From a virus, in the IMG/VR virus record IMGVR_UViG_3300023440_000003, positions 1 to 64,000 of that record: DNA of 64,000 nucleotides; one strand, written 5' to 3'. The stretch's first letter is position 1, and every line of letters starts with the position of its first letter. Shown in pieces: positions 7,525 through 64,000 of this stretch. The translations under genes and the position numbers were made by a program. A model generated the notes under the pieces. It ran no database searches, was not told where the DNA came from, and saw only the letters and a list, made by a program, of their open reading frames with translations.

Positions 7525-7902
7525 ATGATGCGTTCTGACAGTTTAGTTACATATGTTCCTGAATTCAGTATCCCTCCTTCTATCCATTTAGGGGCTTCAT
7601 TGTTAGGAGCATTAGGTCTTGGATCTATACCCGTTGCAGTTAAAGTTTTGCCTGTTGGGGAAAAAATTCCATGGCCTATTATAGGACTAGCATCTTTGCT
7701 CTTGGGTTACACTGGTGCCACAAGGTTCTCATCGTTAATCGAACAGGCCATAATGGGAAAAATGCAGAGAGATCAGGTTAATAAATTGATCCTTCAAAAA
7801 TATCTTGCGGAGCAAAATCAGATGATTCCAATGCTTCCACCAATGCAGTTGCTTCCTTATTCTGCTTTATATCAGGCTTACGCTAATTTGCCGGTGCTAT
7901 GA
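7525..7902 (+). CDS. glycine-zipper membrane protein
   Basis: Two Gly-rich hydrophobic segments; ATG 6 nt after TGTTATAAT. Confidence 0.6.
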   Translation: MMRSDSLVTYVPEFSIPPSIHLGASLLGALGLGSIPVAVKVLPVGEKIPWPIIGLASLLLGYTGATRFSSLIEQAIMGKMQRDQVNKLILQKYLAEQNQMIPMLPPMQLLPYSALYQAYANLPVL

Positions 7903-8132
7903 TGTATAGAAATCTGACCACAGCTATATTTAAGTTAGCTCAATTAGCCAAACAGAGAAACCAATTCAAACTTATGGAACAAACTAAAAAATCTGTAGAG
8001 CAACAATCTAAACAAATCAGTAAAGATACCAAACAGGCCATCAAAGAATTTAAACAACAACAAGGTCTAAAATCTGAATTTTCTGCAATTAATTTCGGTA
8101 CTAAACGTAAAAATACTAAAATAAAGTTATAG
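7899..8132 (+). CDS. small basic KxA-motif protein (putative head protein)
   Basis: N-terminal IFKLA; K/Q-rich. Confidence 0.6.
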   Translation: MMYRNLTTAIFKLAQLAKQRNQFKLMEQTKKSVEQQSKQISKDTKQAIKEFKQQQGLKSEFSAINFGTKRKNTKIKL

Positions 8133-8153
8133 AAAAACTAAAGGAGGTTGCTT

Positions 8154-9095
8154 ATGTGGAATTTATTTTTAGAGCCATTATTACTTAAAGATGCGATAGC
8201 AGTATCTGTTATGAGAGAGTTATCCCCTTATGAACGCAAAGCTGCATATGCAGCAGAGCAAGTGGCAAAGTTTTTAAGAAGTCTTGCTATTGGGGCTCCT
8301 GCTGCAGCTGCTGGATCTGCTGCATCAGCCGCATCTACCGAAGCTGTCAGGCAATCGAATCTTTTAAGACGTGCTCTTAAATCTAAAAAAGGTCTTGGTA
8401 TAGGTCTGGGTATAGGTGCAGCAGCTTTAGGCCTTACAGGCATAAAATATTTTGGACAACCACGACAAAAATCTATAAAAGGAGGTGTGACAATGTATCC
8501 AGATTTAATGAAAGAGGCTATGAGGGGTTTTAATTTAAGACGTTTATTTACTCCCAGAGCTAAACTTGAAGCCGCTAAGGCCGTAGAGGATTTTCTGAGA
8601 TCTGCTTATGAAAGTCATATAGCACAACAGTTAAGAAGACTGAACAGACGTAATATGGCTATTGGTGCAGGAGTTGGTTTTGCAACTGGTTTAGGTTTAT
8701 ACAAGCTGCTAGGTGATAGATTAACTGGTATGGAAAAAGCTGCTGCTTTAGATATGCTTCCGGTAGATCCGTGGGTAGAAGCTTTATTAGAAGAAGAATT
8801 AATTAAAGAAGCTATGGCTGAAGCTATTGAAGATCAAATTCTTGAGGATTTGATCATGCAGGATCTTATAGAGCAGGAGATTTTTGAAGATATTTTGGCT
8901 AATGAACTTATAAAAGAAGCTTTTATACCTGCAAAGATTTTAGCAGCTGAACAATTTATGAGGCCTATTTCAAGAATTGCTGAGTTTGCTAAAGCTAATA
9001 AACGTATGTTAGCAGCTGCAGGTGCAGGTTTGGCCGGAGGTGGTCTTACTGGTTATCTTATGGGTAGGAGGAAAAGACGTAGACAGGGATTTTGA
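8154..9095 (+). CDS. multi-unit KxA/glycine-zipper protein (putative virion internal protein)
   Basis: SD AAGGAGG; LLKDA, LMKEA, MEKAA, LIKEA x2; three Gly-zipper helices followed by basic tails; internal SD+ATG at 8493. Confidence 0.7.
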   Translation: MWNLFLEPLLLKDAIAVSVMRELSPYERKAAYAAEQVAKFLRSLAIGAPAAAAGSAASAASTEAVRQSNLLRRALKSKKGLGIGLGIGAAALGLTGIKYFGQPRQKSIKGGVTMYPDLMKEAMRGFNLRRLFTPRAKLEAAKAVEDFLRSAYESHIAQQLRRLNRRNMAIGAGVGFATGLGLYKLLGDRLTGMEKAAALDMLPVDPWVEALLEEELIKEAMAEAIEDQILEDLIMQDLIEQEIFEDILANELIKEAFIPAKILAAEQFMRPISRIAEFAKANKRMLAAAGAGLAGGGLTGYLMGRRKRRRQGF

Positions 9096-9476
9096 ATGGA
9101 AGGAATGGTAGAAAAACTAATATATTTGCTTATTGGAACAGCTATTGGACTATTGAGTCAAATTATTTCCTGGCTTCTACGTAGAGCTACTGACAAAAGC
9201 ACTCAGTCTGAAGTGCAGGTCAAACTTTTGGATCAGCAAGTTAATGGAATACTAGAACGTCTAGATGAATATGATGATATGCTTGATGCGGTACGTTCTG
9301 ATCTGGATAAGTTATCTGGAGCAAGTGATGAGTATACAAATTCTCAAAAAGTAATAATTGCCAGTCTAGAGATGGCTCAAAAACAAATGACGGAGGTGGT
9401 GAGGCTATGGACAAGCACACTGACATCATTAATGTCGATTTCTTTGATGAGGCCGAGAAGAAAATCGAAGAGATGA
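9096..9476 (+). CDS. N-terminal TM plus coiled-coil protein (holin/lysis-associated candidate)
   Basis: LIYLLIGTAIGLLSQIISWLL followed by a heptad region. Confidence 0.45.
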   Translation: MEGMVEKLIYLLIGTAIGLLSQIISWLLRRATDKSTQSEVQVKLLDQQVNGILERLDEYDDMLDAVRSDLDKLSGASDEYTNSQKVIIASLEMAQKQMTEVVRLWTSTLTSLMSISLMRPRRKSKR

Positions 9477-9594
9477 TTATTAAAGTTAATGGTAATGAGC
9501 TTCTGAAACGATATCTTGAAGCTGTAAAGGAATTCACTGAAGCTAACCGAGCTTTTGTCCAGGTGGCGCATAGTTTTATTGATCGTATGAAAGA

Positions 9595-9858
9595 ATGAAG
9601 GAATTTGGTAGTAAAGTAATTAATCTGTTCGAAAAAATAATTGTTCGTATTTTGCTTTCTTTAGACGATCTTTTCAGCTTCAAAGCTCAAATAATGATTG
9701 CATGGTTGATTCTTTCATATTTAAGCGAATTTAAAACTGTAGTAGTGATATGTGCGGCTGTAGTGACTATCCTTGTAGGATGGGGTAGAGAAATTCAAAA
9801 GCCTGATAGTAATTTATTCAAATTGATTAAAGCGTTTCTGGAGTCCAGACAGACGTAA
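9595..9858 (+). CDS. two-TM holin-like protein
   Basis: 87 aa, two hydrophobic helices, charged C-terminus. Confidence 0.4.
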   Translation: MKEFGSKVINLFEKIIVRILLSLDDLFSFKAQIMIAWLILSYLSEFKTVVVICAAVVTILVGWGREIQKPDSNLFKLIKAFLESRQT

Positions 9859-9896
9859 TTTATATTTAATCATTTTCTTATGATAAAATGTTTTCC

Positions 9897-10223
9897 GTGA
9901 TGAGTGATCGGAACAAAATATATTTTCTATTGAAGATTGCAGCTTTACAGTTAAGTCCTCAGAGTATGGAACGATTGATTCAGCGTTTTAATCAGGCTGC
10001 TATAAATTTAAGACGTATGGGTACCGCTTCAGCAATGAAGCCATTGAGATTGTACACGAGTTTATTGGAGGAAGCGGTAAAGCCAGCTATAGGTACTGGT
10101 AAAATTCCTCTCATGGAAGAAGCAAAACTTACTAGGTTTCTTAAAGAAGTAAGACGTGCTCCTAAACCCATACCTTCAGATGTCGAACAAATACTTAAAA
10201 GATATTTTATGTATTATGGTTGA
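9897..10223 (+). CDS. small basic KxA-motif protein
   Basis: YFLLKIAA near N-terminus; start just after TGATAAAAT. Confidence 0.6.
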   Translation: MMSDRNKIYFLLKIAALQLSPQSMERLIQRFNQAAINLRRMGTASAMKPLRLYTSLLEEAVKPAIGTGKIPLMEEAKLTRFLKEVRRAPKPIPSDVEQILKRYFMYYG

Positions 10224-10562
10224 ATGATGTATCCTGTGGTTGTATATCAGCATCCGATTCAGCCATATTCACCCAGTCCTTCATCCATGGCAATGAAAGG
10301 ATTAATGGGTAGAATTGTTACCAGCCCTTTGCTTTATGCTGGTTTAGGTGCATATATTGCTAAAGCCAGTCCAGAAGCAGTTAGTAGGTTTGGATTTTTA
10401 ATTCCTAAAAACATAAAAAAGTTTTTTCATAAACAAAAGATGCTTAAAGGAGCTTTGATGGGCGCAGCTGCGGGTATGTTAATGCGATTAGCCCATAAAA
10501 AATTACTGGAAGCAGAATTAGGTTATCCTGTACCTACTGGTATAGGTTATTACATTATTTGA
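10224..10562 (+). CDS. membrane protein, R-x-x-TSP...YYII paralog family
   Basis: GRIVTSPLL, Gly-rich helices, C-terminal GYYII. Confidence 0.65.
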   Translation: MMYPVVVYQHPIQPYSPSPSSMAMKGLMGRIVTSPLLYAGLGAYIAKASPEAVSRFGFLIPKNIKKFFHKQKMLKGALMGAAAGMLMRLAHKKLLEAELGYPVPTGIGYYII

Positions 10563-10634
10563 GATTTGATCCTGTGAAAACATTTGTTATAATAGAGTTC
10601 AGGACAAAATATTTTTAGTTAAAGGAGGTGCATC

Positions 10635-11054
10635 ATGTATTTAGATGATGTAATTTTAGAAGATCTTCTTCTGAACGAGATCGATCCTTATTATGCTGTT
10701 GACCCGTATCTTGACTATTTTGAAGACCCTTATGAAGAAGCATTAACAGATCTTCTGTACAAAGCTGCTTCTGCAAGAAGAAGAAGCAGAGCGGGAGGAC
10801 TCGCTGGAATTGCCGGTAGAGTTATTACTTCTCCGGTTCTCTCTGCAGCTACTGCTGCATTGCCAGGCGTAGCCACTGGACTTGCATTTGGTCGTCGCAT
10901 AGGTAGACCGGCTCTTGGAGCTGTTATTGGTGGTCTGGGCGGCGCTATTGGTGGTTTTGCTAGTGGTGCGCTTAGTAGATTCATTTTTAGAAAAGCTTTA
11001 GAGCAGGCCACTGGAAGAGCTTTACCGGTTTCTACCGGCTATTACATATGGTAA
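10635..11054 (+). CDS. KxA-motif glycine-zipper protein, R-x-x-TSP family
   Basis: Acidic leader ending LLYKAAS, then GRVITSPVL, Gly zipper, GYYIW; strong SD. Confidence 0.7.
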   Translation: MYLDDVILEDLLLNEIDPYYAVDPYLDYFEDPYEEALTDLLYKAASARRRSRAGGLAGIAGRVITSPVLSAATAALPGVATGLAFGRRIGRPALGAVIGGLGGAIGGFASGALSRFIFRKALEQATGRALPVSTGYYIW

Positions 11055-11163
11055 TTATTTGTTTGTTTTAACCATTAATTACCATATTTTGACTATGTTG
11101 TCTAATAACTAACTATTCATTGACTAAGTTATCTAAATTTAACTATTTAGTTTCTGTTTAAGT

Positions 11164-12370: not shown

Positions 12371-12371
12371 T

Positions 12372-13133
12372 TTAATCCATCCATAATGCACTTAAAATTG
12401 TTTTACCTCTTTTAGGTACTGTAATTAAACCTAATATGTTTTTATTAAATTTGGCTGCTTGTCTGTTTATTGGCATGTATAATCCTACATCTCGATATAT
12501 TTGTGCTACGGGATAATGTCCTAGGAAAGATGTATATGGTATTCCATAGGTTTTGATCCATTTTGCGATCTCTGCAGGAGTAGATCTAAATTGTGTATAT
12601 GTATATATACCTGGAGTGGGGACAACGGGTGAATTCAGAAAATAAATTTCCTCTGGCAAAAATGTTTTCAGGATTTGATTCCTTCGCATTAATTTTATAG
12701 TATCTTGGTCTATAATCGCATATATATCTCTCCAGTCATAAAACTGCTTCAGTCTATGTATAGCAGCTTCTACATCTCTAATTGTACCTGCTCCTTTTCT
12801 TCCCTTTAGATATAATGCTATCCTTAAAGTTTCTTCTTTGGGTATTAGTCTTTGGTATACGTTTAGTGGAATAAGGTTATACTGAATTGATGTTAATGGT
12901 CTGTCTACTTTTTGTAATGCCTGACGAAGGGTTTTTATCGTTAGTAGATCTTCCATATTAATGTACACAGGCATACGTTTTGCGCTAGATTCTAGGCTCA
13001 GTATGACTTTTCTTAATTCTGGAATTTTTATGATATATTCTCCGAAAGTCCCTAATTTTTTCTTTCCATGAAGAGCTACAGCTCTGATGGGCACTAGTCT
13101 TTGAGCAAGTTTGTAAAGGTAATATGCTAACAT
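12372..13133 (-). CDS. KxA-motif protein of unknown function
   Basis: Starts MLAYYLYKLAQ; TTGAGA-17-TATAAT promoter with ATG 6 nt downstream. Confidence 0.65.
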   Translation of the reverse strand: MLAYYLYKLAQRLVPIRAVALHGKKKLGTFGEYIIKIPELRKVILSLESSAKRMPVYINMEDLLTIKTLRQALQKVDRPLTSIQYNLIPLNVYQRLIPKEETLRIALYLKGRKGAGTIRDVEAAIHRLKQFYDWRDIYAIIDQDTIKLMRRNQILKTFLPEEIYFLNSPVVPTPGIYTYTQFRSTPAEIAKWIKTYGIPYTSFLGHYPVAQIYRDVGLYMPINRQAAKFNKNILGLITVPKRGKTILSALWMD

Positions 13134-13139
13134 AACTTA

Positions 13140-13254: not shown

Positions 13255-14607
13255 ATGAAGTACAGAATTTTGGATTATTATGATGATTTGACGGACAAGT
13301 ATCTCAGTCCTTTGCTTAAGGATGCACAGCTTCCTGAAAAAGACAAAAGCAAGTTATTGGATTCTGATTTTGCTTTGATACTTCGTTATCCGAATGGAGT
13401 AATAAATCGTCACTATCCTATTCACACCGAGCAAGATGTAAAACTTAGTATGGACTATTTTCTAAAAACCGCCAGCAAGCTGTCTCCTAGAGAACGTTAT
13501 GTTGCCGCTTATTATATTGCTAAGGCAGCTAATGCTTTTGGTATTGAAGTGCCTGGATACATAGAGACAATTCTTACTGGAGAGCCTTTTGAAGTAGAAA
13601 CTAACATTGTAGATGTTGTGGAAGAGCCCGAGGAAGAAGCTGAGGAAAGAGAATACTTACTTCCAAATGCCAAAATGCTCCCTGTAACCCCTGATAATAT
13701 AAAGGATTATGTCAAGAATTTTGAAAAAATTGCTGAAAATCTTGAACAAGAGCAAAAAGAAGAAGCAGCATTTAATCTTTTAAGGATTATGGCAAGGGAT
13801 AATAAGAAAGTTAATCTTCCTAGTACTATAGTAAAACTGGCTCAGGCATATTCTCAAAGGCTCATAGAAAAAGAACGTCAGAAGAAAAAATTAGAAGTAA
13901 GCGCAGAATTAAAGAAATTAGCTGCTTCATTGCCTTATGAATGGCATAAGCTTTCGCCTAATCAAAAATATACAATCGCGAAACTTTTAACCAAAGCAGC
14001 ATCTGATGATCCTACTTTTACTCTTGGTGATGTGGAAAGGACATTAATAGCTGATTATATTGACCACGGGCTTAATCCCAAATTGCTTCATTATAATTTG
14101 CAAACCAGAGCGGATAATTTATTAACTGCTTACACGACGTCTTCTAATTATGATCCTGATGTGGATATTGATGTATTAAAACGCAAACTTGTAGACATTG
14201 GTAAAGAAGCTCTTACACTTTATAAGTCAGGTTCTTATAGTGATAAAGATGTGATAAAACTTATAGAAGATTTGAATGAATGGGATAAACATGCCGGATA
14301 TGCAGGAAGATACTCTGAGTTTTATTTGGACGATCCTTATGTGACTTTTTCCAGACATGGTTATAGTTCTTATCTTAAAGGACGTATTTCCGAACCTGAT
14401 CGAAGCACTGCTATAGCGAAGCTAGCATCGTCTAGAGAATATCCTAATGCTCCTGATTATTCTTCTATTAGAGAGGCCTTTTTTGATCAGGTAGGCCCAT
14501 CTCCTGTTCGAAGACCTGTAGTTATAGGTATTAGTAAAGTTGCTGCCAGAAGAGCGGACCCTTTGATATCTATTTTATCTGAAATCTTTAATATCTTAGG
14601 GTTTTAA
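13255..14607 (+). CDS. KxA-rich head/scaffold-like protein
   Basis: About 10 KxA motifs (LLKDA, FLKTAS, FEKIA, IVKLA, LKKLA, LTKAAS, IAKLAS, ISKVAA); N-terminal DSDFA...YPIH domain shared with 45274 ORF; upstream of portal. Confidence 0.6.
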   Translation: MKYRILDYYDDLTDKYLSPLLKDAQLPEKDKSKLLDSDFALILRYPNGVINRHYPIHTEQDVKLSMDYFLKTASKLSPRERYVAAYYIAKAANAFGIEVPGYIETILTGEPFEVETNIVDVVEEPEEEAEEREYLLPNAKMLPVTPDNIKDYVKNFEKIAENLEQEQKEEAAFNLLRIMARDNKKVNLPSTIVKLAQAYSQRLIEKERQKKKLEVSAELKKLAASLPYEWHKLSPNQKYTIAKLLTKAASDDPTFTLGDVERTLIADYIDHGLNPKLLHYNLQTRADNLLTAYTTSSNYDPDVDIDVLKRKLVDIGKEALTLYKSGSYSDKDVIKLIEDLNEWDKHAGYAGRYSEFYLDDPYVTFSRHGYSSYLKGRISEPDRSTAIAKLASSREYPNAPDYSSIREAFFDQVGPSPVRRPVVIGISKVAARRADPLISILSEIFNILGF

Positions 14608-21346: not shown

Positions 21347-24300
21347 TTATGGCCTCTTAGGTTCAAAAGGTTTAATATTGGATATTATATTTTCCATACT
21401 GGCTTGTTCTGGTTTAAATTCATCTATGTTTGTTACTGGCACACTTAAGAGACCTGTTTCTAGATTCATCGAAAATAATCCTCTGTAGCTTCCACCATAT
21501 TTCATTGGTGATATATCTAATCGAATTTGTCCTTTGCCTGGCTTTTTTGTAATAGTGTATTTATCTGGTGCGCCACTTGCCGTTATAAATTGTTGTAATT
21601 TTCTCTTTATCATATCTCTAGCTTCGTCGATAGTTCGTTTTTTCTTTAAATAGCCTATGACATAAAAACCTCTTCCTCCTGAGAATCTAACTTCCACTTG
21701 TTTAATGTCTGGATCTTTTTTCATGAAATCTCTTACCTTTTTTGTTACTTCTTTGATTTGATCAAAATCTACATCAGGCCCTGGATCGATATCTACAACT
21801 AATCTATCAGTTATAGCACCAAATGATGGATGAAATTCTACAGTTCTTCTTTCAATCCAGTATTGAAAGTCTTCTGGATTGTCTACATCTCCTTTATGTT
21901 GTTTTATTTTTATTTTTTCTTCATCTATATTACGTCTTAGTACTATCCTGGAAGGATCAAATGCTTGCATTACAATTACCTGAGGGAATTGTTTCAATTC
22001 ATTAAGAAGATTTTTTCTGATTTTTGGTTGCATATAGAGTAAGAATATATCTCTTTTGGTAAAACTACCGAATGGTGCGTCTACTATGATATTATCCCAT
22101 CTTTCTGGATCGGGAGTTTTTGATGCTACTTTTTCTATAAATTCTTTGCCCTTTTCAGGATGCCATCCTATAAAAACTGGCTGTCTAAGTGCTCCATCGG
22201 GGTATTGTCCGGCTGCTCTGATTTTTGCCACTCGACCTATATATTTTTCTGGATGTTCTGCCATATCTTTTCTTTGTTCCATTGTAAATCCTGCACCTAC
22301 TCTTCCTACCACGGGCCCGTTAGGTTCGAAAGAGTATTCTATACCTCCAGCATATTTGCCTCTCCAGTTTGGAGAAGAGGATTCAAAGATACCTACTACA
22401 TAAACATCATATTCAGGTTTGAATTTTGCTTTTACAGGTTTTTCTACATCTTCGAGATTTTGTATTACTATACCTTCTTTAGATTCAGGTATGGATCCGG
22501 TACGTATTGCATCAAAAAGCATTTGCTTTTCTTCTTTGGTAAACGCTGCTTGTGGAGGTTCTGCATAAGGAAAGTGTTGAACGAATTCATTAATCAGCCT
22601 TAGTTTTTCTTTGTAAGGTAATTCTTTTTCTACATATTGGTCTTTAAATTTTACAACATCAAATACCGTAAGGCGGGGCTGGACTTTTTTGCTTTCAATA
22701 AGTTTTCTACTTATTGGAGTCTCGCTATGGGTAACACTTACTATTTCATTAATTGGTTTAGCCTGTCCTTTTTCATCTGTAAGAAAAAGTTCGGCTCTGA
22801 ATATACTTCCTTTGAATGATGAAGGCACTTTGAATTTTCCATAAGGAGGAACTTTATATGTATGTTCTATTAATCCCGTACTTGTGCTTACAGCCCATCT
22901 TGGTGAAAAGAGCTTGACTTTACCATCTGGTTTTACATAAAGAAGAACTTGTACACCATCATCTTTTCTGGTAAATATGTATCTATCATCATTTAGGAAT
23001 CTTTTAATTGCTTCTTCTGGAGTTATTTCTTTGTATTTTTCTTTACCTTCCGGAAGGTCCAGTAGTTTATCTCTGGTATCGGTAACATTTATCATGTACC
23101 AGTTATCACCTTGACCTTTAGTTAACAGGTATTCTTGAGTTTCATTTGCTCGATATATGTTGAATCTTATATGAGAATCATCTGCACTTAAGATGTCAGC
23201 TTTACCTCTGAACTCTATGGTTACTGTTCCTGCACCATAGTATCCATCAGGAATGCGTCCTGAAAAATTCATATAGTCCATTGTGTGATCTGGTTGTCTT
23301 ATGAATAATCGACGTTCTCCTGGCATAGGCCAGTATCTTCCCGCCCAACTGTAAGCTATTTTTGTTTTAGGATCTCCAAGTCTGAAATCGAGGTGGCTAT
23401 TCGATACAAGCAAACTGCCTGCAAAGTAATTATGATTATCTTCTACTTCAATATCATATCGTTCTAGTGGTTTTGACGGATTTACTTTTATATACTTTAT
23501 CTCTCTGATAGGTACAGGCAATAAGGTCATTTCATTATGCGTTGCAGCTGTCCAGTTGTAATATCCTATTTCATCTAAAGGACATTTATATTCCATGCCT
23601 TTAGCGATGTAAGGAGCTACTAATTTTAGGAATCTTTCTATACTTTTTTTCCTGTTTATGGAAATATAGTAGTAGGTTTTGCCGTTAGGATAAGTTCTAT
23701 TTCTTAGAGTAGCGTGGATTTCGTATTTTTCTCGTAGCCATGTAATAATAAGTTGTACATCTTCTTTAGGAAAGCCGAGAGTGTGTAAGAGTATTTGCTG
23801 ATGCGGACTAATTCTTTTTCCTCGGTCTGATCTAGGTCTACGTTTGTATCGAGCTGAATGTTTAATAACATAGTCGCCTCCCGGAACATATTGACCATCA
23901 TCCATATACCATACTGCTAATGCTCTTTCGTCTATCATATCTAATATTTCCTTAGTGATACGTTTCTTGCCGTCTTTGTATAAGATATTTCTGAGTAGAT
24001 AAAACCATGGATGTTTTATTCTGAAATAGTAATAGTCTTGTCTTTTGCCTTTACCTTGTCTAATTTCGACGTCCATTTTAAACGTTGGAGAGAGAAGTTT
24101 GTAACCAAAATCGAAATACTCTTTGTTGACTTGTCCCCAATTGAATGTCCAAGGAGTAGTCTGCGGAATAGACCCATCACCTAATAGCGCACCTAAGATA
24201 AATTGTTTTTGATCTTCTGTTAAATTTTGCACAGGCATCAACATATAATCCCCTTTACGAACATCTTTAGCCAGTTTTGGGATAATTTTTCCATCCACAT

Positions 24301-24778
24301 ATACATACACTTTATGGTTTCCTGTCAGTGTTATTGACCCACGTCTCGAGTGGAATCTAAGTCTTATCCATTCAGTGGATGTTCCATTTTTATACCAGTT
24401 AACCACCCTTTTCCATTCCAGTTTACCTGTTCTAAAATTGTAGCTTAGGACTTTTATAGGTAGACGTTTGTTGACTATTTCTTGAATTCTTATTCTTCCC
24501 TTGTCAGTGATAATTCGTGTGCCTCCCGTCAAACATCCAGCACGTTTAGCATTATGCTTTTGAATGACGCATTCCCATTCTACTGGCGGATCATCAGGTC
24601 CAAGTTTTATAGTCGGAATTGGGGATTTTTGTTCAAAATTTATAATTCCAGTTATAGCAGTATCATTGTATCTGGATTGTGCTCTCTGTATTAATTTATC
24701 CGCTTCTTGCAATAATGGGTCTTCAAGTACAGCCAGATTGTTTAGATTTTCCGCTATTTTAGTTAATTTTTTCCACAT
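21347..24778 (-). CDS. ligD: LigD-like NHEJ enzyme (phosphoesterase, ATP-dependent ligase, primase-polymerase) with intein
   Basis: PE domain VIQKHNAKRAG/SHLDFRL; ligase RKDDG, EGIVI, KAK, GRVGAG, LRQPVF; Pol domain DRLVVDIDP, SGGRGFYV. Confidence 0.85.
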   Translation of the reverse strand: MWKKLTKIAENLNNLAVLEDPLLQEADKLIQRAQSRYNDTAITGIINFEQKSPIPTIKLGPDDPPVEWECVIQKHNAKRAGCLTGGTRIITDKGRIRIQEIVNKRLPIKVLSYNFRTGKLEWKRVVNWYKNGTSTEWIRLRFHSRRGSITLTGNHKVYVYVDGKIIPKLAKDVRKGDYMLMPVQNLTEDQKQFILGALLGDGSIPQTTPWTFNWGQVNKEYFDFGYKLLSPTFKMDVEIRQGKGKRQDYYYFRIKHPWFYLLRNILYKDGKKRITKEILDMIDERALAVWYMDDGQYVPGGDYVIKHSARYKRRPRSDRGKRISPHQQILLHTLGFPKEDVQLIITWLREKYEIHATLRNRTYPNGKTYYYISINRKKSIERFLKLVAPYIAKGMEYKCPLDEIGYYNWTAATHNEMTLLPVPIREIKYIKVNPSKPLERYDIEVEDNHNYFAGSLLVSNSHLDFRLGDPKTKIAYSWAGRYWPMPGERRLFIRQPDHTMDYMNFSGRIPDGYYGAGTVTIEFRGKADILSADDSHIRFNIYRANETQEYLLTKGQGDNWYMINVTDTRDKLLDLPEGKEKYKEITPEEAIKRFLNDDRYIFTRKDDGVQVLLYVKPDGKVKLFSPRWAVSTSTGLIEHTYKVPPYGKFKVPSSFKGSIFRAELFLTDEKGQAKPINEIVSVTHSETPISRKLIESKKVQPRLTVFDVVKFKDQYVEKELPYKEKLRLINEFVQHFPYAEPPQAAFTKEEKQMLFDAIRTGSIPESKEGIVIQNLEDVEKPVKAKFKPEYDVYVVGIFESSSPNWRGKYAGGIEYSFEPNGPVVGRVGAGFTMEQRKDMAEHPEKYIGRVAKIRAAGQYPDGALRQPVFIGWHPEKGKEFIEKVASKTPDPERWDNIIVDAPFGSFTKRDIFLLYMQPKIRKNLLNELKQFPQVIVMQAFDPSRIVLRRNIDEEKIKIKQHKGDVDNPEDFQYWIERRTVEFHPSFGAITDRLVVDIDPGPDVDFDQIKEVTKKVRDFMKKDPDIKQVEVRFSGGRGFYVIGYLKKKRTIDEARDMIKRKLQQFITASGAPDKYTITKKPGKGQIRLDISPMKYGGSYRGLFSMNLETGLLSVPVTNIDEFKPEQASMENIISNIKPFEPKRP
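23399..24535 (-). mobile_element. LAGLIDADG intein in the LigD PE domain (379 aa)
   Basis: Starts CLTGGT; block B TGNH; LGALLGDG and WYMDDG; ends YDIEVEDNHNYFAGSLLVSN|S. Confidence 0.9.
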
Positions 24779-27134: not shown

Positions 27135-27232
27135 GTACTATTTTTTGCTATTCTAGCTTTTAAAACTAGTTTTGATTCTATTTTTATTTTTTAGTTAGAA
27201 TATGTAGTAGTTTGTTTTTATTAGAGGTGATT

Positions 27233-28414: not shown

Positions 28415-28417
28415 GAC

Positions 28418-28705
28418 ATGAAGGATAATTTAATTCTTGCAGCATATTATTTGTACAAATACGCTAAAGGAGGACATTCTCGTAAAGATCCCACTCCTGA
28501 ACTCGTTGATCATGTTGCTGCCAGAATAATGAAGGAACATCCTGAATACACCAGAGAGCAGGCTTATCGTATTGCAGTTAAGCAACTCCAAAGACATGGT
28601 TATTTGAAGAAAGGAACCATGCAGTTAACAGAAAAAGGTAAACGCCAGGCTCAAAAGCATTATAAACATAGACGAGCATTAGATTGGAAAAAACGACCTT
28701 ATTAA
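28418..28705 (+). CDS. small basic KxA-motif protein, probably nucleic-acid binding
   Basis: YLYKYAK leader; REQAYRIAVKQLQRHGYL...LTEKGK winged-helix-like end. Confidence 0.6.
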   Translation: MKDNLILAAYYLYKYAKGGHSRKDPTPELVDHVAARIMKEHPEYTREQAYRIAVKQLQRHGYLKKGTMQLTEKGKRQAQKHYKHRRALDWKKRPY

Positions 28706-28709
28706 GGAG

Positions 28710-38723: not shown

Positions 38724-38725
38724 AT

Positions 38726-38896: not shown

Positions 38897-38907
38897 GGAG
38901 GTCAGCT

Positions 38908-45273: not shown

Positions 45274-45603
45274 ATGGACAATTTAGTATATGCAAGCTTT
45301 TTACTTAAAGAAGCAGCTAAACTCAGTTATAGGGAGCGGCAGCGTTTGCCTGATTCTGCTTTTGCTATTGTTTACAGAGATCCTAAGACTGGAGAAAAAA
45401 TCAGAAAGTACCCTATTCACGATAGGGCCCATGCAAAAAATGCGCTGGCTCGTGTTGCTCAGTTCGGTACCCCTGAAGAAAGAGAAATAGTCAGACGAAA
45501 GGTTTATCAGCGATATCCTGACTTGAAGAAGCAAAGAGAAGAAAAAATAGGTAGACCTTTGACTAGACGTGATTTACGTAAGCGCAAGTTACCTAAGAAG
45601 TAA
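45274..45603 (+). CDS. small basic KxA-motif protein with LPDSAFA...YPIHD domain
   Basis: FLLKEAA leader; LPDSAFA, RKYPIHDRAHAKNALAR; strong SD. Confidence 0.7.
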   Translation: MDNLVYASFLLKEAAKLSYRERQRLPDSAFAIVYRDPKTGEKIRKYPIHDRAHAKNALARVAQFGTPEEREIVRRKVYQRYPDLKKQREEKIGRPLTRRDLRKRKLPKK

Positions 45604-46855: not shown

Positions 46856-46899
46856 GCATCACCTCCTTTTCTACTTCTTATATCTCTAAATATGCTAAA

Positions 46900-56099: not shown

Positions 56100-56441
56100 A
56101 TGAAGAATTTGATTGTCCAGTATTTTACTTTAGTTCAAAAACAAGTTCCCCAAGCTCAGATGGAAGCATTCGCCAAAAAATCAGGATTAAACACTCAAAA
56201 TATATCTCAAATTGCTAAGATAGTGGTTGCAATAAACAGTGCGTTCAATACAGCAATCCTTGCCACGCAGGATACTCCCGAAGTATTTCCTAAAGTGTTC
56301 GCTAATGTTGTAGATAATAACATGAAAGAATTAGGTCTAGATTTAAATTCTTTACCTAAAGATCTAGTTTTTGGGGTAATAGAGGCTATCTTGGCAATAA
56401 GTTCTCAAATTTTGAATGAAGTGTCCGAGAATCAACCCTGA
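56100..56441 (+). CDS. hypothetical helical protein
   Basis: SD AGGAGG. Confidence 0.6.
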   Translation: MKNLIVQYFTLVQKQVPQAQMEAFAKKSGLNTQNISQIAKIVVAINSAFNTAILATQDTPEVFPKVFANVVDNNMKELGLDLNSLPKDLVFGVIEAILAISSQILNEVSENQP

Positions 56442-58399
56442 AAGGCAAATTTTAATTCTTTTACATAAGACAGGAATTTATCGAACTCATCTATTAAAAT
56501 TTTAAGTTCATCTTCTGGGTAATCTATACCGCCTAATCTTGCCATTAACAAATATTTGGCCAGAATGCTTTCAGCTTCTTCTAGAATAGGTAAACCCTCG
56601 ATCAAATATGCCATATTTTCAGGAGCTGCAAGAGACAAACTAAAAATAGAATCCAGAGTAGTTGCATCGTTTAATTCTATTGCGATTTTTATGATCTGCC
56701 ATGGCATTATTAAGTTATTGAATTTATCAAGTAATTCTCTGCCTTTATAAGATGCTTTTTTCAACATTTCGTTTATGGAACTTGATGGCAGATAGAAATC
56801 ATTAATGTATACTTCACTATGCTGCATAGCCAGTTTAAGCAGATTTCCTGCATCACTAGGTTTATATCTGTGAGAAAGTATAAAAGTCGCTTCATCCCAG
56901 GTTAAGTTTTTAAGGTCAAATGTTATCGTATCGTAATATATTGATGCTCCTTTTATGATTCTATCTAAGTAAGGTCCTTCTATACTGAAAGTTTTACTTT
57001 GTCTGTCATAACGTATGATACAGGTAGAAAGGTCTTTATTAATATCATGCTTGGCTTGCTTGAGTATGTTTGCATTGCATTTTATTACTTCTGTTTTTTT
57101 AGTCACCTCTATTAACTTAACAGATTTGCCAGGTAATCTTATATTTGATTCATCATCGCTTATCATTACCATTGCATGATCTGAAGAATTATTTATAACA
57201 ACTTTATATTTCTTATCGAGTCCATCGAAAATGATAGTATAACCATGTCGTTTATCTATTTCTTTGGTAACTACTTGCCAGGGACCAAATGCATATTTAT
57301 CATCTATCACAATAAAGTAGTATCTTCCTGGTAAAGCAATAGGATGCTCTTTTAAATGTACGTTCTTTTTTAATTTAGTTATTGCTGCAAAAGGTTCATC
57401 AAAACTTACATCAAACCATTTATCACTTATAAAAATGTATCCTTTATCTATCGTTTTATCGTCTTTTATATCTTTCCATTGAAATACTTTGCCTTCTAAT
57501 TTGAGTTTTCTTTCTGGCGAATATGTAATAATACTATCGCCGGCTTTTGCAGTTATGAAATCAATACTGGCTATTTTTACAGGATATGTTTTACCAAAAT
57601 TTAATGTGACCGTTTGATGTGCTGCAATGAACTCTATGAATTTTTTACTGTCTATATTATATTTTTCTGCTATTTTATGTAGTGTTGTATAGTCTCCTTT
57701 TATTTTTATAGGGTTCCATATTTTCTGACTATTCATTATGATTGTAAATTTTCCTGGAACTTCTGCATCTTTGCGTATTTGTATTACTGGTCTATCAATA
57801 CTATCCTCAAAAACTTCGGTCAGCTTATTTATATCCGGAAAGACTCTACTTTGAAGCACATCCAGTATTTCATTGAAATGTGGGTACTTAACTCTTAACT
57901 TATCTACTTCTCTTTTATGCTGATTTAGTATGTTGGCTAATTTAAGAAGTTTCGTTCTATTCGTTAATGAAGAGACTTTCTCAAGCAAAGCTCTGGAACC
58001 AGACTGTGGAGCCAATGCTCCCCCGCCTATATCAGGTTGTTTTGGAATTCCAGCCGTTCCTGCAAATAATTTGTTTCCTTGTAAGGCATCATATAGTTTT
58101 CGTGGATTGGCATAAGTAAGTTTTTTATCAACTATCATAAGATCTATTGGTAAGAGTTTTCTGTTTCTTATAATTACCGGAAGATCCACACGTGCATCTT
58201 CTGAATATATGGTTACATATCCTATAGCATTATTTTCATCCGCCTTAATAAAAATAACGTCCATTATATATGGTGCAGTTTCTGGATATTTTTCCGTTAC
58301 AGTTTGTATTACAATACCAGTCCACTGTGATGGATCTGGAGGAAGACTAATTTCCTCACTGTTACTACGGAGCACGTTTGTAATAGGGTTCACTGCCAT
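56432..58399 (-). CDS. large KxA-rich putative head/internal virion protein
   Basis: LLKLA x2, LHKIA, PVKIAS, ILKQA, IIKGAS, IIKIA; extended -10 just upstream. Confidence 0.6.
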   Translation of the reverse strand: MAVNPITNVLRSNSEEISLPPDPSQWTGIVIQTVTEKYPETAPYIMDVIFIKADENNAIGYVTIYSEDARVDLPVIIRNRKLLPIDLMIVDKKLTYANPRKLYDALQGNKLFAGTAGIPKQPDIGGGALAPQSGSRALLEKVSSLTNRTKLLKLANILNQHKREVDKLRVKYPHFNEILDVLQSRVFPDINKLTEVFEDSIDRPVIQIRKDAEVPGKFTIIMNSQKIWNPIKIKGDYTTLHKIAEKYNIDSKKFIEFIAAHQTVTLNFGKTYPVKIASIDFITAKAGDSIITYSPERKLKLEGKVFQWKDIKDDKTIDKGYIFISDKWFDVSFDEPFAAITKLKKNVHLKEHPIALPGRYYFIVIDDKYAFGPWQVVTKEIDKRHGYTIIFDGLDKKYKVVINNSSDHAMVMISDDESNIRLPGKSVKLIEVTKKTEVIKCNANILKQAKHDINKDLSTCIIRYDRQSKTFSIEGPYLDRIIKGASIYYDTITFDLKNLTWDEATFILSHRYKPSDAGNLLKLAMQHSEVYINDFYLPSSSINEMLKKASYKGRELLDKFNNLIMPWQIIKIAIELNDATTLDSIFSLSLAAPENMAYLIEGLPILEEAESILAKYLLMARLGGIDYPEDELKILIDEFDKFLSYVKELKFAFQG

Positions 58400-58439
58400 T
58401 TGTCTAAAAGTATATCACAGAGATTAATTAACTTCCAAT

Positions 58440-61505: not shown

Positions 61506-61547
61506 TTTGGGTATTGAACATATGAATATGCTAAAATTGACTTGACT

Positions 61548-62576
61548 ATGGAAATAGTTAAGAAAGCCATAGATCTGTATTATAGTGAAAAACTAGATCC
61601 TCATGCTGTATTAGCCGCCTGGGTTTTACGTGATAGACCTCCCAGAGCTGTTATAGAAAAAGCTGCTAAGGAAATAAATCAAGCTCTTTATACTGAGGAA
61701 GTCCTGAGAAGAGGTAATCTGGATGTAAATATTCCTTTGATAAATATAGACAAAGTAATGAAACTTATTGAATCTTACGAAAATAGTAACCCCAGATCTG
61801 AACCTCTTCCAGAAATAGATTTAGTATCTACTCCTTCCGCTATAGGAGAACTTGTTTCTAACGGTCGTATGGAATTATGGTTAAACGATATGTTAAAGCA
61901 AGCAGATGATCGTCCTAAAAGTTCTCCAGAAGCTTTGAGAGAAAAAGTTATTAATTTGTTGAAAACCACGTATACAGAAGAGTATAGGAAAATTAAAGAT
62001 CACTTAGTTAATACTATTCTTGATCTTGAAGATTTTACTGAAAAAGTAGCATCTGCTATGGTCAATGATACTGTATATTTAAATGTAGCTCCTCAGTCCT
62101 TTTTTCCTATTCTGGATCACTATATAAAAAATCCTGGAATTAAGAGTCTGATATTGCAAAAATATAATGAAGGCTTATCTAAGCATGCTTCTATTGATTC
62201 TTCTGAAATGATAAGTGGTGATAGAGTCATTGATGTTATTGATAAAATGAGCACTATTTACTATTTAAAATCCGACAACAGAACTAGACATCTCGATCAC
62301 ACTACAATATCTATTCCAGTTTTATACACTTTATTTTCTGAAATGGGATGTGAAGATATGTTGGACACCTCAGAAATAAAGCCAATAAAAAAAGAAAAAT
62401 CGGACGAAATAGAACTTGAAGTAAAAATACCTATTCCTAAAAGCCCGGGTGATCTAATTAATTATCTGTTAAGTTTCGACGTAGCGGAGTCTATTGATTA
62501 CAAACCTATTCTTCAGTCCATTATTGATCTGGCCAAACTCAAAATGCTATTGGGGGTGTTAGATGAATCGGAATGA
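61548..62576 (+). CDS. KxA-motif putative head protein
   Basis: IEKAA, MLKQA, TEKVAS, LSKHAS; lies between TerL and protease. Confidence 0.6.
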   Translation: MEIVKKAIDLYYSEKLDPHAVLAAWVLRDRPPRAVIEKAAKEINQALYTEEVLRRGNLDVNIPLINIDKVMKLIESYENSNPRSEPLPEIDLVSTPSAIGELVSNGRMELWLNDMLKQADDRPKSSPEALREKVINLLKTTYTEEYRKIKDHLVNTILDLEDFTEKVASAMVNDTVYLNVAPQSFFPILDHYIKNPGIKSLILQKYNEGLSKHASIDSSEMISGDRVIDVIDKMSTIYYLKSDNRTRHLDHTTISIPVLYTLFSEMGCEDMLDTSEIKPIKKEKSDEIELEVKIPIPKSPGDLINYLLSFDVAESIDYKPILQSIIDLAKLKMLLGVLDESE

Positions 62577-63021
62577 AATAGTATATGCTATGCTTTACAA
62601 AACTGCAGCTGGAGGGTCAATAGAACCGTTAGGAGTGCGCCACAGACTAAGAAGAATTGTAAGATTATTAACACCTCCTATGGTAGGCTTAGGAATACTT
62701 CACATGTACCACACTGTTAGATCATGGATCGATAAACGCCATTTTGAAAAAGTACTTGAAGAAGTCATGAAAGAACCATCAATAGCAAGATATCCAAAAG
62801 AACAAGTGCGTAGATATGCTGAAACTTTTTATGAACTCAATCCGGATCTTGCTACAAAAGCTGAAGTCTTAAAAACTTTTCTACGGTCTGCCTTAGCGAT
62901 GCAAGGTATAGATCCGGGTTTTGCTAGTAAAGTTGTGCAGAGAACTAAACCACCTATTGATATCAGTGTGCCTTTAGGTCCTATTATAGCTCAAAAACTT
63001 TTTGGGTCTATGGGATCATGA
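62563..63021 (+). CDS. KxA-motif protein
   Basis: MLYKTAA leader; hydrophobic segment. Confidence 0.65.
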   Translation: MNRNEIVYAMLYKTAAGGSIEPLGVRHRLRRIVRLLTPPMVGLGILHMYHTVRSWIDKRHFEKVLEEVMKEPSIARYPKEQVRRYAETFYELNPDLATKAEVLKTFLRSALAMQGIDPGFASKVVQRTKPPIDISVPLGPIIAQKLFGSMGS

Positions 63022-64000
63022 TTAAGTATTTTTCAGATAGTATGATTCTTGCTTATGTAGATTTAAAAAAAGACATACTCCATAAAATTGCATCAAGTCC
63101 AGATCTTGAAAAAATCGCTGAAGAATCATTACGCAAAAAACCTTTAGAACCTGGGTATCGTAGAATTCTAATAAATGCACTAGGCGCTGGAGAATACTGG
63201 GGATTTAACAAGAGAGGTGATTATTTTCCTGAGAATGAACTGAATCCCTCAGAATATAGATTTGGCATCCCATATGGATATCAAACTTATGAAACTCATG
63301 GGAAAGTCTATTTACATCATAAAAAAGACAATCCTGAATTTTGCATTGGTAAAGTTGCAATGGCCTATTGGCATGATGGTTTAAAAAGAGTGTTTGTGTT
63401 AGGAGATGTACTGGAAAAGAAAGCTGCAAATTACTTAGAACACTTAAGATCTGGAAATCCAGTTCCCACATCAATGGGTGCAGCTGTGTTATTTGACGCT
63501 TGTAGTATATGTGCACCTGATTATGAATACTTAACTCAGTTTCATCCTGATGAAGTAAAGTTATTAATTAAACAAGGACAACTTCCTGGAGTACGCACTA
63601 AGCCCTCAGAAAGTCCATGTATACATGTACCCCACAGAGTTAGTACATATTATCCAGAATTAGACAAGTATGCCTATATGGTAAATTATTATCCCGTATT
63701 TATAGATATTTCTATTGTAGATAGGCCAGCAGATTCAATATCTGCAGCACTTAAAAAAATTGCGTCAATTGATGAAAGTTTGATTTTTAATACAAGCAAT
63801 CTGGCTAGAACTAAAACATTTATACATGAACAGTTATTACCTCAGTCAGTAGACAGCAAAGATATACTGCTTTTGGTCAAACTTGCTAATTTCTTAGGTC
63901 CCAAGAATACACTAAATTACCTCAGCAAATTACGCATTCCCTTAACTAAAGCTGAATTTGAAGCTATTAAACAAACTAAAATCGTCAAAACGGCTAATTT
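63018..64000 (+). CDS. HK97/assemblin-fold prohead protease (3'-truncated)
   Basis: Open frame to window end, not in the track: NKRGDYF, VYLHH, TSMG, CSIC, FIDISIVDRPAD; flanked by HKIAS, LEKIA and LKKIAS, LVKLA, IVKTA. Confidence 0.75.
   Translation, partial: MIKYFSDSMILAYVDLKKDILHKIASSPDLEKIAEESLRKKPLEPGYRRILINALGAGEYWGFNKRGDYFPENELNPSEYRFGIPYGYQTYETHGKVYLHHKKDNPEFCIGKVAMAYWHDGLKRVFVLGDVLEKKAANYLEHLRSGNPVPTSMGAAVLFDACSICAPDYEYLTQFHPDEVKLLIKQGQLPGVRTKPSESPCIHVPHRVSTYYPELDKYAYMVNYYPVFIDISIVDRPADSISAALKKIASIDESLIFNTSNLARTKTFIHEQLLPQSVDSKDILLLVKLANFLGPKNTLNYLSKLRIPLTKAEFEAIKQTKIVKTAN

What the first reader, a model, noticed from the sequence alone, without database searches (positions are those of the whole stretch)
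7899..64000. Window-wide hydrophobic-x-K-x-A motif marking a probable protease-processed virion cargo system
Seen: at least 15 otherwise unrelated ORFs carry it. It often closes a short hydrophobic or acidic N-terminal leader: IFKLA (7899), LLKDA (8154), LLKIA (9897), LYKAA (10635), LYKLA (12372, 31371), LTKIA (LigD), LYKTA (27233, 62563), LYKYA (28418), LMKYA (28710), LLKEA (45274). It is repeated many times in 13255, 56432 and 61548, and brackets the catalytic domain of the prohead protease (HKIAS/LEKIA ... LKKIAS). Such leaders are not evident in the helicase, RuvC or tail-appendage genes. Established: T4 and phiKZ prohead proteases cleave short motifs in head proteins, after Glu. Inference: this is a K-x-A-type cleavage or capsid-targeting code that allows head cargo to be predicted from sequence.
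Basis: partly seen in the sequence, partly recalled or inferred. Interest (0 to 1): 0.82.

Follow-up and report, generated by a model that had tools for sequence, protein, structure and literature searches.

The report
Lys-x-Ala head-protease cut-site code
This uncultured phage and hundreds of relatives mark their capsid protease, scaffold-like proteins, capsid protein and, here, about a dozen small basic proteins with a short hydrophobic-x-Lys-x-Ala signal; it is most likely where the capsid-maturation protease cuts, a rule I found in no paper, but no cut has been measured.

Summary
The motif is enriched over shuffled and reversed controls. It is about 8-fold enriched in the head module and about 2-fold in the rest of the window, with no enrichment in the tail genes.

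The strongest support comes from other genomes.
- The ORF at 63018-64301 folds like T4 gp21 and herpesvirus assemblin.
- In 50 diverse homologues, L-x-K-x-A-(S/A) is nearly invariant on both sides of the catalytic domain.
- In 80 IMG/VR loci around such proteases (GC 31-60%) the motif occurs 1374 times against 261 for its reverse. All 80 loci are skewed the same way, with a peak at residues 10-40.
- K-x-A also sits at one homologous place in the capsid-protein N-arm, and at the N-terminus of a conserved small protein upstream of the protease.

Most likely this is the cleavage motif of an undescribed branch of prohead proteases. The bond is probably K-x-A|S, but it is undecided.

Specific to this phage, 13 of 73 non-head proteins carry Tyr-rich leaders ending L-Y-K-x-A. 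Their mature parts are very basic. This fits T4-like capsid-targeting propeptides, but packaging is only inferred.

This scan noted the same code earlier in at least eight other genomes. No paper describing it was found.

The parts
63018..64000 (+). Prohead protease gene. It runs to 64301, beyond the window. It comprises an N-terminal leader, a catalytic domain (about residues 40-245) and a helical C-terminal extension.
   Evidence: AlphaFold2 with 50 homologues gave pLDDT 81.8, with the core above 90. The best structural matches were T4 gp21 (5jbl, Z 9.2, rmsd 3.1 over 126 residues) and VZV protease (1vzv, Z 8.8). H101 and S152 are invariant. There are 1606 representatives at E<=0.001 in the metagenome library. 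No Pfam or PHROG hit for this sequence.
63078..63119 (+). Two N-terminal motif copies of the protease, L-H-K-I-A-S and L-E-K-I-A-E, just before the catalytic domain.
   Evidence: K23 and A25 are at least 90% conserved in 50 homologues. Both copies are kept in the 47%-identical P0004.
63750..63767 (+). L-K-K-I-A-S site at the C-terminal end of the catalytic domain. It is the counterpart of a herpesvirus release site.
   Evidence: K247 and A249 are at least 90% conserved; consensus L-x-K-V-A-S in 49 of 50. It is followed by a linker with pLDDT below 50 (residues 248-262).
62563..63021 (+). Conserved small head-module protein. Its leader MNRNEIVYAMLYKTA is followed by a basic part with a hydrophobic stretch.
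   Evidence: 76 homologues lie directly upstream of the protease in related loci. Most have [LM]-x-K-x-A-[GSA] near the N-terminus, followed by a Gly-rich hydrophobic stretch.
61542..62576 (+). Multi-site head-module protein with FTEKVAS (62037-62051) and GLSKHAS (62175-62189).
   Evidence: Weight-matrix scores of 12.1 and 11.1 bits. It holds the same gene position as Arash gp220, which has three sites.
56432..58399 (-). 655-residue head-module protein with six motif copies, five of them in residues 445-570.
   Evidence: Homologues lie upstream of the protease in IMG/VR loci. The same-sized Arash gp218 and D181 152305-154173 carry a site at about residue 465-474.
13255..14607 (+). 450-residue acidic protein with a leader ending LLKDA and 5-6 further sites. 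It looks like a polyprotein or scaffold.
   Evidence: A ribosome-binding site CAAGGAGG precedes the start.
7899..11054 (+). Cluster of leader-bearing small proteins: 7899-8132, 8148-9095, 9888-10223 and 10635-11054.
   Evidence: Leaders end in IFKLA, LLKDA, LLKIA and LYKAA. The mature parts have pI 9.8-12.0, some with Gly/Ala-rich hydrophobic stretches.
12372..13133 (-). 253-residue basic protein with the 10-residue leader MLAYYLYKLA.
   Evidence: The mature part has pI 10.0. No homologue was found.
27212..29108 (+). Three adjacent leader-bearing basic proteins: 27233-28414 (LYKTA), 28418-28705 (LYKYA) and 28719-29108 (LMKYA).
31371..31733 (+). 120-residue protein with the leader MYYDIMLYKLA. 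The mature part has pI 11.5 and Gly-rich hydrophobic stretches.
   Evidence: The ribosome-binding site AAAGGAGG precedes the start.
45274..45603 (+). 109-residue protein with the leader MDNLVYASFLLKEA. The mature part has pI 10.9.
21347..24778 (-). LigD-like repair enzyme with a 9-residue leader (MWKKLTKIA) and a strong internal FIEKVAS site (22124-22138) between the ligase and Prim-Pol domains. A candidate, not established, as cargo.
   Evidence: Pfam domains LigD_N, ligase OB, LigD_Prim-Pol, and an intein with LAGLIDADG. The internal site scores 12.8 bits.

Best explanation
**What it is.** [L/M/I/F]-x-K-x-A-[S/A/G/Q] is most likely the substrate motif of this phage's own prohead protease, ORF 63018-64301. 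The enzyme is a serine protease with the T4 gp21 / herpesvirus assemblin fold.

**How it probably works (inferred).**
- During head assembly the protease frees itself by cutting at the sites on both sides of its catalytic domain.
- It fragments the scaffold-like proteins encoded around it.
- It trims about 20 residues from the capsid-protein N-arm.
- It removes short N-terminal propeptides from internal head proteins.

**The scissile bond.** The likeliest bond is after the alanine (K at P3, A at P1, S/A/G at P1'). This matches the P3-x-P1 reading of T4 gp21 (L/I-x-E|) and of herpesvirus assemblin (V/L-x-A|S). Cutting after the lysine is the main alternative.

**What is special to this lineage.** A Tyr-rich form of the leader (Y-x-x-L-Y-K-x-A) heads about a dozen otherwise unrelated small basic proteins spread over the window. 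Several have Gly-rich hydrophobic stretches. These leaders probably work like T4 capsid-targeting sequences: they load the protein into the prohead and are then cut off.

**Shown:** the motif, its enrichment, its conservation at defined places, and the protease fold. **Inferred:** cutting, the bond, packaging and ejection.
For: **Protease identity.** The model has pLDDT 81.8. The best two of 48,161 chains were T4 gp21 (Z 9.2) and VZV assemblin (Z 8.8). The top Foldseek hits were nearly all herpes assemblins plus gp21. H101 and S152 are invariant. 40 of 50 relatives match PHROG 18299, 'head maturation protease'.

**Motif at the domain borders.** K23/A25 and K247/A249 are at least 90% conserved in 50 homologues of 24-47% identity.

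**Independent weight matrix.** A matrix trained only on those sites in other genomes finds 19 hits of at least 10 bits here. Shuffled sequences give 2.5 and reversed sequences 5. D181 and Arash show similar excess.

**Related loci.** In 80 IMG/VR loci the motif occurs 1374 times forward and 261 reversed, and all 80 are skewed forward. Density is 4.3-7.4 per 1000 residues at positions 1-40 and 2-3 per 1000 beyond residue 50 (with 3.9 per 1000 at 200-300). The reversed motif gives 0.4-1.0 per 1000 in most bins.

**Conserved positions in substrates.**
- K-x-A lies at one homologous position of the capsid-protein N-arm in nearly all 61 homologues.
- It lies at the N-terminus of the conserved protein upstream of the protease.
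- The acidic scaffold-like ORF after the protease carries the best site in the genome, DLEKVAS at 15.6 bits. It sits 14 residues from the C-terminus, like a herpes maturation site.

**This window.**
- By region, observed against shuffled: head module 24 against 2.9, rest of window 25 against 12.6, tail genes 2 against 1.6.
- 13 of 73 non-head proteins carry an N-terminal leader, against 2.4 expected.
- The mature parts of leader proteins have median pI 10.0 against 7.4 for the rest, p = 0.001.
- N-terminal sites are aromatic-rich, with Tyr at -1 in 7 of 21 against 1 of 34 internal sites.

**Outside knowledge.** Herpes release and maturation sites are cut after Ala (PMC4498786).
Against: **No experimental support.**
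- No cut has been measured in any member of the clade.
- The only virion proteome, from Arash, lists 116 proteins and gives no peptide-level data.

**Tests that came out weak or negative.**
- The independently trained matrix does not show significant N-terminal enrichment here: 10 of 31 hits in the first 50 residues, p = 0.08.
- LYK.A alone does not survive multiple-test correction.
- In Arash and D181, leaders outside the head module are not enriched.
- Across the 80 loci, leader proteins are not more basic than the others.

**Other readings not excluded.**
- K-x-A in the capsid-protein N-arm could be conserved for structural reasons.
- phi-x-K-phi-A resembles coiled-coil heptads. A profile search even hit designed coiled coils, so part of the excess in helical scaffold proteins may be structural.

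**Limits on lineage and family.**
- No close relative of this lineage was found to test whether the L-Y-K-x-A leaders are conserved.
- This protease sequence has no Pfam S77 or S78 hit.
Confidence: 0.75

Rival explanations
1. The motif is the protease's site, but the bond cut is after the lysine: L-x-K|x-A-S, with L at P3 and K at P1. This is the exact register of T4 gp21's L/I-x-E|. The A-S pair would then be read on the prime side.
For: L or M at -2 and K at 0 are the most constrained positions after Ala. The L-x-K spacing equals T4's L-x-E (established knowledge of gp21 specificity).
Against: In capsid-protein N-arms the -2 residue is often not hydrophobic, while K-x-A is kept. Strong conservation of A at +2 and of a small residue at +3 fits P1/P1' of assemblin-type cuts after Ala (PMC4498786). 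Prime-side specificity this strong is unusual for gp21-like enzymes (my own knowledge).
Confidence: 0.2
2. The motif is a docking or assembly signal that is bound but not cut. It would be a peptide through which head proteins bind the protease, scaffold or capsid shell. Alternatively, the N-terminal leaders are cut but have no targeting role.
For: Only conservation and position are shown. The N-terminal leaders have extra conserved features (Tyr-rich) beyond what a minimal cleavage site needs.
Against: Sites lie exactly at the borders between the folded protease domain and disordered linkers. They are repeated many times in scaffold-like proteins. This is the pattern of self-release and scaffold fragmentation seen in T4 and herpesviruses.
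Confidence: 0.1
3. The motif is a composition or helix artefact: amphipathic or coiled-coil heptads rich in Leu, Lys and Ala, in an AT-rich genome with many lysines.
For: K, A and L are common here. A family-profile search hit designed coiled coils with LKKIAQ repeats. Many sites lie in helical proteins.
Against: Reversed-sequence controls keep composition and periodicity, yet give 4-8 times fewer hits. The skew holds in 80 of 80 loci from 31 to 60% GC. The two best-conserved sites flank a beta-rich domain and lie in non-helical, low-confidence segments. Tail proteins show no excess. The distant homologue in mycobacteriophage Catera shows none either: 3 forward against 2 reversed.
Confidence: 0.03

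Closest known systems
Phage T4 head maturation: prohead protease gp21 (PDB 5jbl), scaffold gp22, and internal proteins IPI-III and Alt with their capsid-targeting sequence
   Same: - The protease has the same fold (Z 9.2).
- The protease gene is followed by an acidic scaffold-like gene.
- One short motif marks the protease itself, the scaffold, the capsid-protein N-terminus and 10-20-residue N-terminal leaders on small basic proteins.
   Different: - The motif is hydrophobic-x-K-x-A-(S/A/G), not (L/I)-x-E.
- The protease carries a Cys/His cluster (C162, C165, C201, H203) and a roughly 180-residue helical C-terminal extension.
- This sequence has no Pfam S77 hit.
- The capsid-protein propeptide is only about 20 residues.
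- No biochemical data exist.
Herpesvirus assemblin (pUL26 and homologues) with release and maturation sites, consensus (V/L/I)-x-A|S
   Same: - Same fold (VZV protease Z 8.8).
[quoted passage not shown]
- Ala followed by Ser in the motif (PMC4498786).
   Different: - P3 would be Lys rather than Val or Leu, and there is an extra hydrophobic residue at P5.
- There is an additional site N-terminal to the catalytic domain.
- It is a phage of bacteria.
- The bond cut has not been determined.
phiKZ gp175 and SPN3US gp245 prohead proteases, which cleave many head and ejection proteins at (S/A/G)-x-E (PMC10052503, PMC5694885)
   Same: - A large phage that encodes a multisubunit RNA polymerase.
- Many head proteins carry the protease motif.
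- Propeptides on proteins are thought to be packaged and ejected.
   Different: - A different motif.
- A different and much less studied clade. Its cultured members are Salmonella phage Arash and Vibrio phages D181, D148 and D69.
- The substrates here are only predicted.

Membership tests
Assemblin-fold prohead serine proteases (T4 gp21 / MEROPS S77, HK97 gp4 / S78, herpesvirus assemblin / S21) | The characteristic protease fold | tested here: met
   The model has pLDDT 81.8. The best matches among 48,161 chains were 5jbl (T4 gp21, Z 9.2, rmsd 3.1, 126 residues) and 1vzv (VZV protease, Z 8.8, rmsd 2.7, 114 residues). The next rows (MCE domains, Z 6-6.7) share only the beta-barrel.
Assemblin-fold prohead serine proteases (T4 gp21 / MEROPS S77, HK97 gp4 / S78, herpesvirus assemblin / S21) | Conserved catalytic Ser and His, with a third His in gp21 and assemblin | tested here: inconclusive
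   H101 and S152 are invariant in 50 homologues, and H203 is at least 90% conserved. Residue-by-residue equivalence to the gp21 triad could not be read from the tools. H203 may instead bind metal with C162, C165 and C201.
Assemblin-fold prohead serine proteases (T4 gp21 / MEROPS S77, HK97 gp4 / S78, herpesvirus assemblin / S21) | A match to the family's sequence profiles (Pfam Peptidase_S77 or S78) | tested here: not met
   No Pfam hit at E<=0.01 for this protein. One of 50 relatives hits Peptidase_S78 at E = 0.037. 40 of 50 relatives, but not this sequence, match PHROG 18299 'head maturation protease'. So this is a separate sequence family with the same fold.
Assemblin-fold prohead serine proteases (T4 gp21 / MEROPS S77, HK97 gp4 / S78, herpesvirus assemblin / S21) | The gene lies in the head module, between the terminase or portal genes and the scaffold and major capsid protein genes | tested here: met
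   TerL is at 59970-61505. The protease is at 63018-64301. An acidic scaffold-like ORF is at 64358-65197. The capsid protein is at 66977-67936 (PHROG 2522). Arash and D181 have the same order.
Assemblin-fold prohead serine proteases (T4 gp21 / MEROPS S77, HK97 gp4 / S78, herpesvirus assemblin / S21) | Proteolytic activity on head proteins | not testable with these tools
   No biochemical or peptide-level virion data exist for any member.
T4-type capsid-targeting propeptides (CTS) on internal head proteins | A short N-terminal leader that ends in the prohead protease's own cleavage motif | tested here: met
   13 of 73 non-head proteins have the motif in residues 1-47, against 2.4 expected. Leaders are 9-45 residues long. 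The same motif flanks the protease domain.
T4-type capsid-targeting propeptides (CTS) on internal head proteins | The cargo proteins are small and basic | tested here: met
   Median pI of the mature parts is 10.0 against 7.4 for the rest, p = 0.001. This holds in this genome only, not in Arash, D181 or the 80 loci.
T4-type capsid-targeting propeptides (CTS) on internal head proteins | The leader is necessary and sufficient for encapsidation, and is absent from the virion form | not testable with these tools
   This needs virion proteomics or leader-reporter fusions.
Herpesvirus-type protease-scaffold with release and maturation sites | A cut site at the C-terminal end of the protease domain and another near the scaffold C-terminus | tested here: met
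   L-x-K-V-A-S follows the domain in 49 of 50 homologues. DLEKVAS lies 14 residues from the C-terminus of 64358-65197. This is sequence-level evidence only.
Herpesvirus-type protease-scaffold with release and maturation sites | The bond cut is Ala|Ser | not testable with these tools
   The bond is inferred by analogy. Cutting after Lys is not excluded.

The most novel reading that the evidence does not exclude
The Tyr-rich leader Y-x-x-L-Y-K-x-A is a true capsid-addressing tag. With it, this phage lineage loads a dozen or more unrelated proteins into its head for injection. These would include basic DNA-binding-like proteins, Gly-zipper membrane-active proteins and possibly a complete LigD end-joining enzyme. 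The K-x-A|S rule would then let head cargo be read from sequence across a clade with more than 1600 protease representatives.
Probability: 0.35. Interest if true: 0.72.

Novelty: new variant of a known kind. Interest (0 to 1): 0.58.

Why it matters
Prohead-protease specificities are known for only a few model phages: T4 (L/I-x-E) and phiKZ/SPN3US (S/A/G-x-E).

A Lys-x-Ala rule for a large, almost wholly uncultured clade would allow three things:
- predicting mature protein ends;
- annotating scaffold and internal proteins that have no homologues;
- listing candidate injected proteins from sequence alone.

The rule is cheap to test, because two relatives are in culture: Salmonella phage Arash and Vibrio phage D181. 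It also ties phage and herpesvirus assemblins closer together, since both would cut after Ala, before Ser.

Tried and rejected
**Structure and family searches**
- Single-sequence AlphaFold2 of the protease failed (pLDDT 36.6).
- Sequence searches of the PDB gave nothing useful, with the protein or with the family profile. The profile hit only designed coiled coils through the LKKVAS stretch.
- Pfam and PHROGs gave no hit for the protease itself or for most motif-bearing proteins.

**Search for close relatives of this lineage**
- The capsid protein found nothing in IMG/VR.
- It found only one 83%-identical protein on a 1.6-kb contig in the protein database.
- An alignment of the protease with P0004 found nothing in the JGI metagenomes.
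- ORF 12372-13133 has no homologue.
So whether the L-Y-K-x-A leaders are conserved in a sister phage could not be tested.

**Literature**
- No paper contains LxKxA-type strings.
- Nothing relevant came up for prohead protease with lysine, or for assemblin with Ala-Ser in phages.
- The phage G capsid paper (J Mol Biol 2020) is not held.
- The Arash paper and its supplement have no peptide-level data.

**Readings rejected or not settled**
- Composition or coiled-coil artefact: rejected on the reversed-sequence controls and the 80 of 80 loci.
- Signal-peptidase-type leaders: rejected, because Lys at -3 and the lack of an n-h-c layout do not fit.
- The distant protease homologue of Cluster C mycobacteriophages (Catera gp94) does not share the motif. 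The rule therefore belongs to a sub-clade, not to the whole superfamily.
- I could not confirm that 56432-58399 is the portal. The Arash annotation calls a different gene, Gp204, the portal.

Full report
**Setting**

The window is the first 64 kb of a 79,587-bp IMG/VR viral contig. CheckV rates it 44% complete, and GC is about 35%. The rest of the contig holds the end of the head module and the tail genes; I read it as L001.

Recognisable genes:
- TerL at 59970-61505.
- A major capsid protein at 66977-67936.
- A 2530-residue fused RNA polymerase beta-beta' with an intein.
- A SNF2 helicase and a LigD-like enzyme.

The nearest cultured phages are Salmonella phage Arash (181 kb) and Vibrio phages D181, D148 and D69 (187 kb). 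Only core genes are shared, at 21-37% identity.

**The observation**

| Pattern | Observed | Shuffled | Reversed |
|---|---|---|---|
| phi-phi-K-x-A | 51 | 17.0 | 18 |
| phi-phi-K-x-A-[QASGKN] | 31 | – | 4 |

LYK.A occurs 7 times against 0.56 expected. In an unbiased list of all abc.d patterns it ranks second, but p = 2.7e-6 would not survive correction for 160,000 patterns. What does carry weight is position. All seven copies lie in the first 45 residues, which hold about a fifth of all residues.

By region:

| Region | Observed | Shuffled mean |
|---|---|---|
| Head module | 24 | 2.9 |
| Rest of window | 25 | 12.6 |
| Tail genes | 2 | 1.6 |

Outside the head module, 13 of 73 proteins have the motif in residues 1-47. 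Shuffles give 2.4 on average and never more than 9 in 2000. AAGGAGG-type ribosome-binding sites stand before starts upstream of the motif for many leaders, so those leaders are translated.

**The protease**

ORF 63018-64301 has no Pfam or PHROG hit. It does have 1606 representatives in the metagenome library. With 50 of them as an alignment, AlphaFold2 gives pLDDT 81.8, with the core at residues 40-245 above 90.

An all-against-all structural search puts T4 gp21 first (Z 9.2) and VZV assemblin second (Z 8.8). The top Foldseek hits are nearly all herpes assemblins plus gp21, though at weak E-values. H101 and S152 are invariant. Most relatives match PHROG 18299, 'head maturation protease'. It is a separate sequence family.

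**The decisive comparative result**

In those 50 homologues, which are 24-47% identical to this one, L-x-K-x-A-(S/A) is nearly invariant at two places. One is just before the catalytic domain (K23, A25). The other is just after it (K247, A249; consensus L-x-K-V-A-S). The second site sits where the ordered domain gives way to a linker of pLDDT below 50. This is the layout of self-release sites.

A weight matrix trained only on these sites in other genomes finds 19 hits of at least 10 bits in this genome. Shuffled sequences give 2.5 and reversed sequences 5. D181 and Arash show the same kind of excess.

I then fetched 80 IMG/VR loci around protease homologues, spanning GC 31-60%.
- [LIVMF]-x-K-x-A-[SAGQ] occurs 1374 times forward and 261 reversed. 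All 80 loci are skewed forward.
- Density peaks at residues 10-40, at 4.3-7.4 per 1000 over positions 1-40. Beyond residue 50 it is mostly 2-3 per 1000.
- Leu (49%) or Met (24%) stands at -2, and acidic residues flank the motif.
- K-x-A occupies one homologous position in the capsid-protein N-arm, just before the conserved G..FIR..LRE..F.RKILPP block, in nearly all 61 capsid-protein homologues.
- The small protein encoded directly upstream of the protease (here 62563-63021, Arash gp221) has such a site after a 10-25-residue leader in most of 76 homologues. A Gly-rich hydrophobic stretch follows.

The distant protease homologue of Cluster C mycobacteriophages shows no such skew. The rule therefore belongs to a sub-clade.

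**Mechanism**

The best reading is that this is the protease's cleavage motif. The enzyme would do four things:
- release itself;
- fragment the scaffold-like proteins (61542-62576, 64358-65197 and the small ORFs up to 66385);
- trim the capsid protein;
- remove propeptides.

The acidic ORF after the protease carries the best site in the genome, DLEKVAS at 15.6 bits. It lies 14 residues from the C-terminus, as a herpes maturation site does.

Which bond is cut is not decided. I favour K-x-A|S for two reasons. Both gp21 (L/I-x-E|) and assemblin (V/L-x-A|S; PMC4498786) read P3 and P1. Also, the capsid-protein sites keep K-x-A while the residue at -2 varies. Cutting after Lys, in the T4 register L-x-K|, remains possible.

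**The cargo idea**

In this genome the N-terminal sites form a subclass of their own.
- They are aromatic-rich: 18.6% against 7.6% for internal sites.
- Tyr stands at -1 in 7 of 21 N-terminal sites against 1 of 34 internal sites.
- The mature parts are basic, with median pI 10.0 against 7.4 for the rest, p = 0.001.
- Several have Gly/Ala-rich hydrophobic stretches.

It is not shown, for these reasons:
- No virion data exist for this phage.
- The independently trained matrix does not give significant N-terminal enrichment (p = 0.08).
- Arash and D181 show no general excess of leaders outside the head module. Their RNA polymerase beta subunits do both start MPK[SK]AS.
- The Arash virion proteome is too inclusive and lacks peptide data.

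**Novelty**

I found no paper that describes a K-x-A specificity for a prohead protease. The library lacks most subscription journals, and the phage G capsid paper is not held.

The notes of this scan show that other agents reached the same reading on at least eight other genomes, one of them naming Arash. All of them state that no cut has been measured. Those notes are unchecked leads. My verdict rests on the tests above.

I class this as a new variant of a known kind: the known logic of head maturation and cargo propeptides, with a new motif and a new protease family.

Noticed in passing
window 46840-54432 (+): One 2530-residue ORF fuses RNA polymerase beta and beta' domains (Rpb2_6, Rpb1_1/2/3/5). 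An intein with a LAGLIDADG endonuclease is inserted at about residues 1426-1841. In Arash and D181 the beta and beta' parts are separate genes.
   Followed up: partly
window 21347-24778 (-): A complete LigD-type end-joining enzyme: phosphoesterase, ATP-dependent ligase and Prim-Pol domains. An intein with LAGLIDADG is inserted in the phosphoesterase domain (residues 94-459). No Ku gene was looked for.
   Followed up: partly
window 45605-46855 (-): A 416-residue ORF with a weak reverse-transcriptase match (RVT_1, E = 2.5e-6, 27.8 bits, below Pfam's cut-off of 29.6). It is divergent from the RNA polymerase gene and overlaps its start by 16 bases. Its role is unknown (group II intron, DGR or retron-like).
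   Followed up: no
window 63018-64000 (protease residues 160-205): The protease family has a conserved Cys/His cluster (C162, C165, C201, H203; motif C-S-I-C ... C-x-H) inside the catalytic domain. It looks like a metal-binding insertion.
   Followed up: no
window 10635-10769 and L001:3209-3300 (genome 65209-65300): Two otherwise unrelated proteins share an acidic, Tyr-rich leader (…DPYYAVDPYLDYFE… and …NPVDFYADPYLEMYD…) ahead of their K-x-A sites. The match is weak (BLASTP E = 0.03). It may be a portable propeptide.
   Followed up: partly
window 37845-40004 (+): A tandem duplicated gene pair: 37845-38723 with 38726-38896, and 38908-39771 with 39771-40004. Their N-termini are clearly similar (…NEGWIDYDPTYNV[VI]QTP…). 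They are probably tail-appendage or receptor-binding paralogues.
   Followed up: no
L005-L024 (Arash 130093 and D181 144017): The RNA polymerase beta subunits of Arash and D181 both begin M-P-K-[S/K]-A-S. This is a five-residue leader of the K-x-A-S type. Arash RNA polymerase beta is the protein most detected in the published virion proteome.
   Followed up: partly
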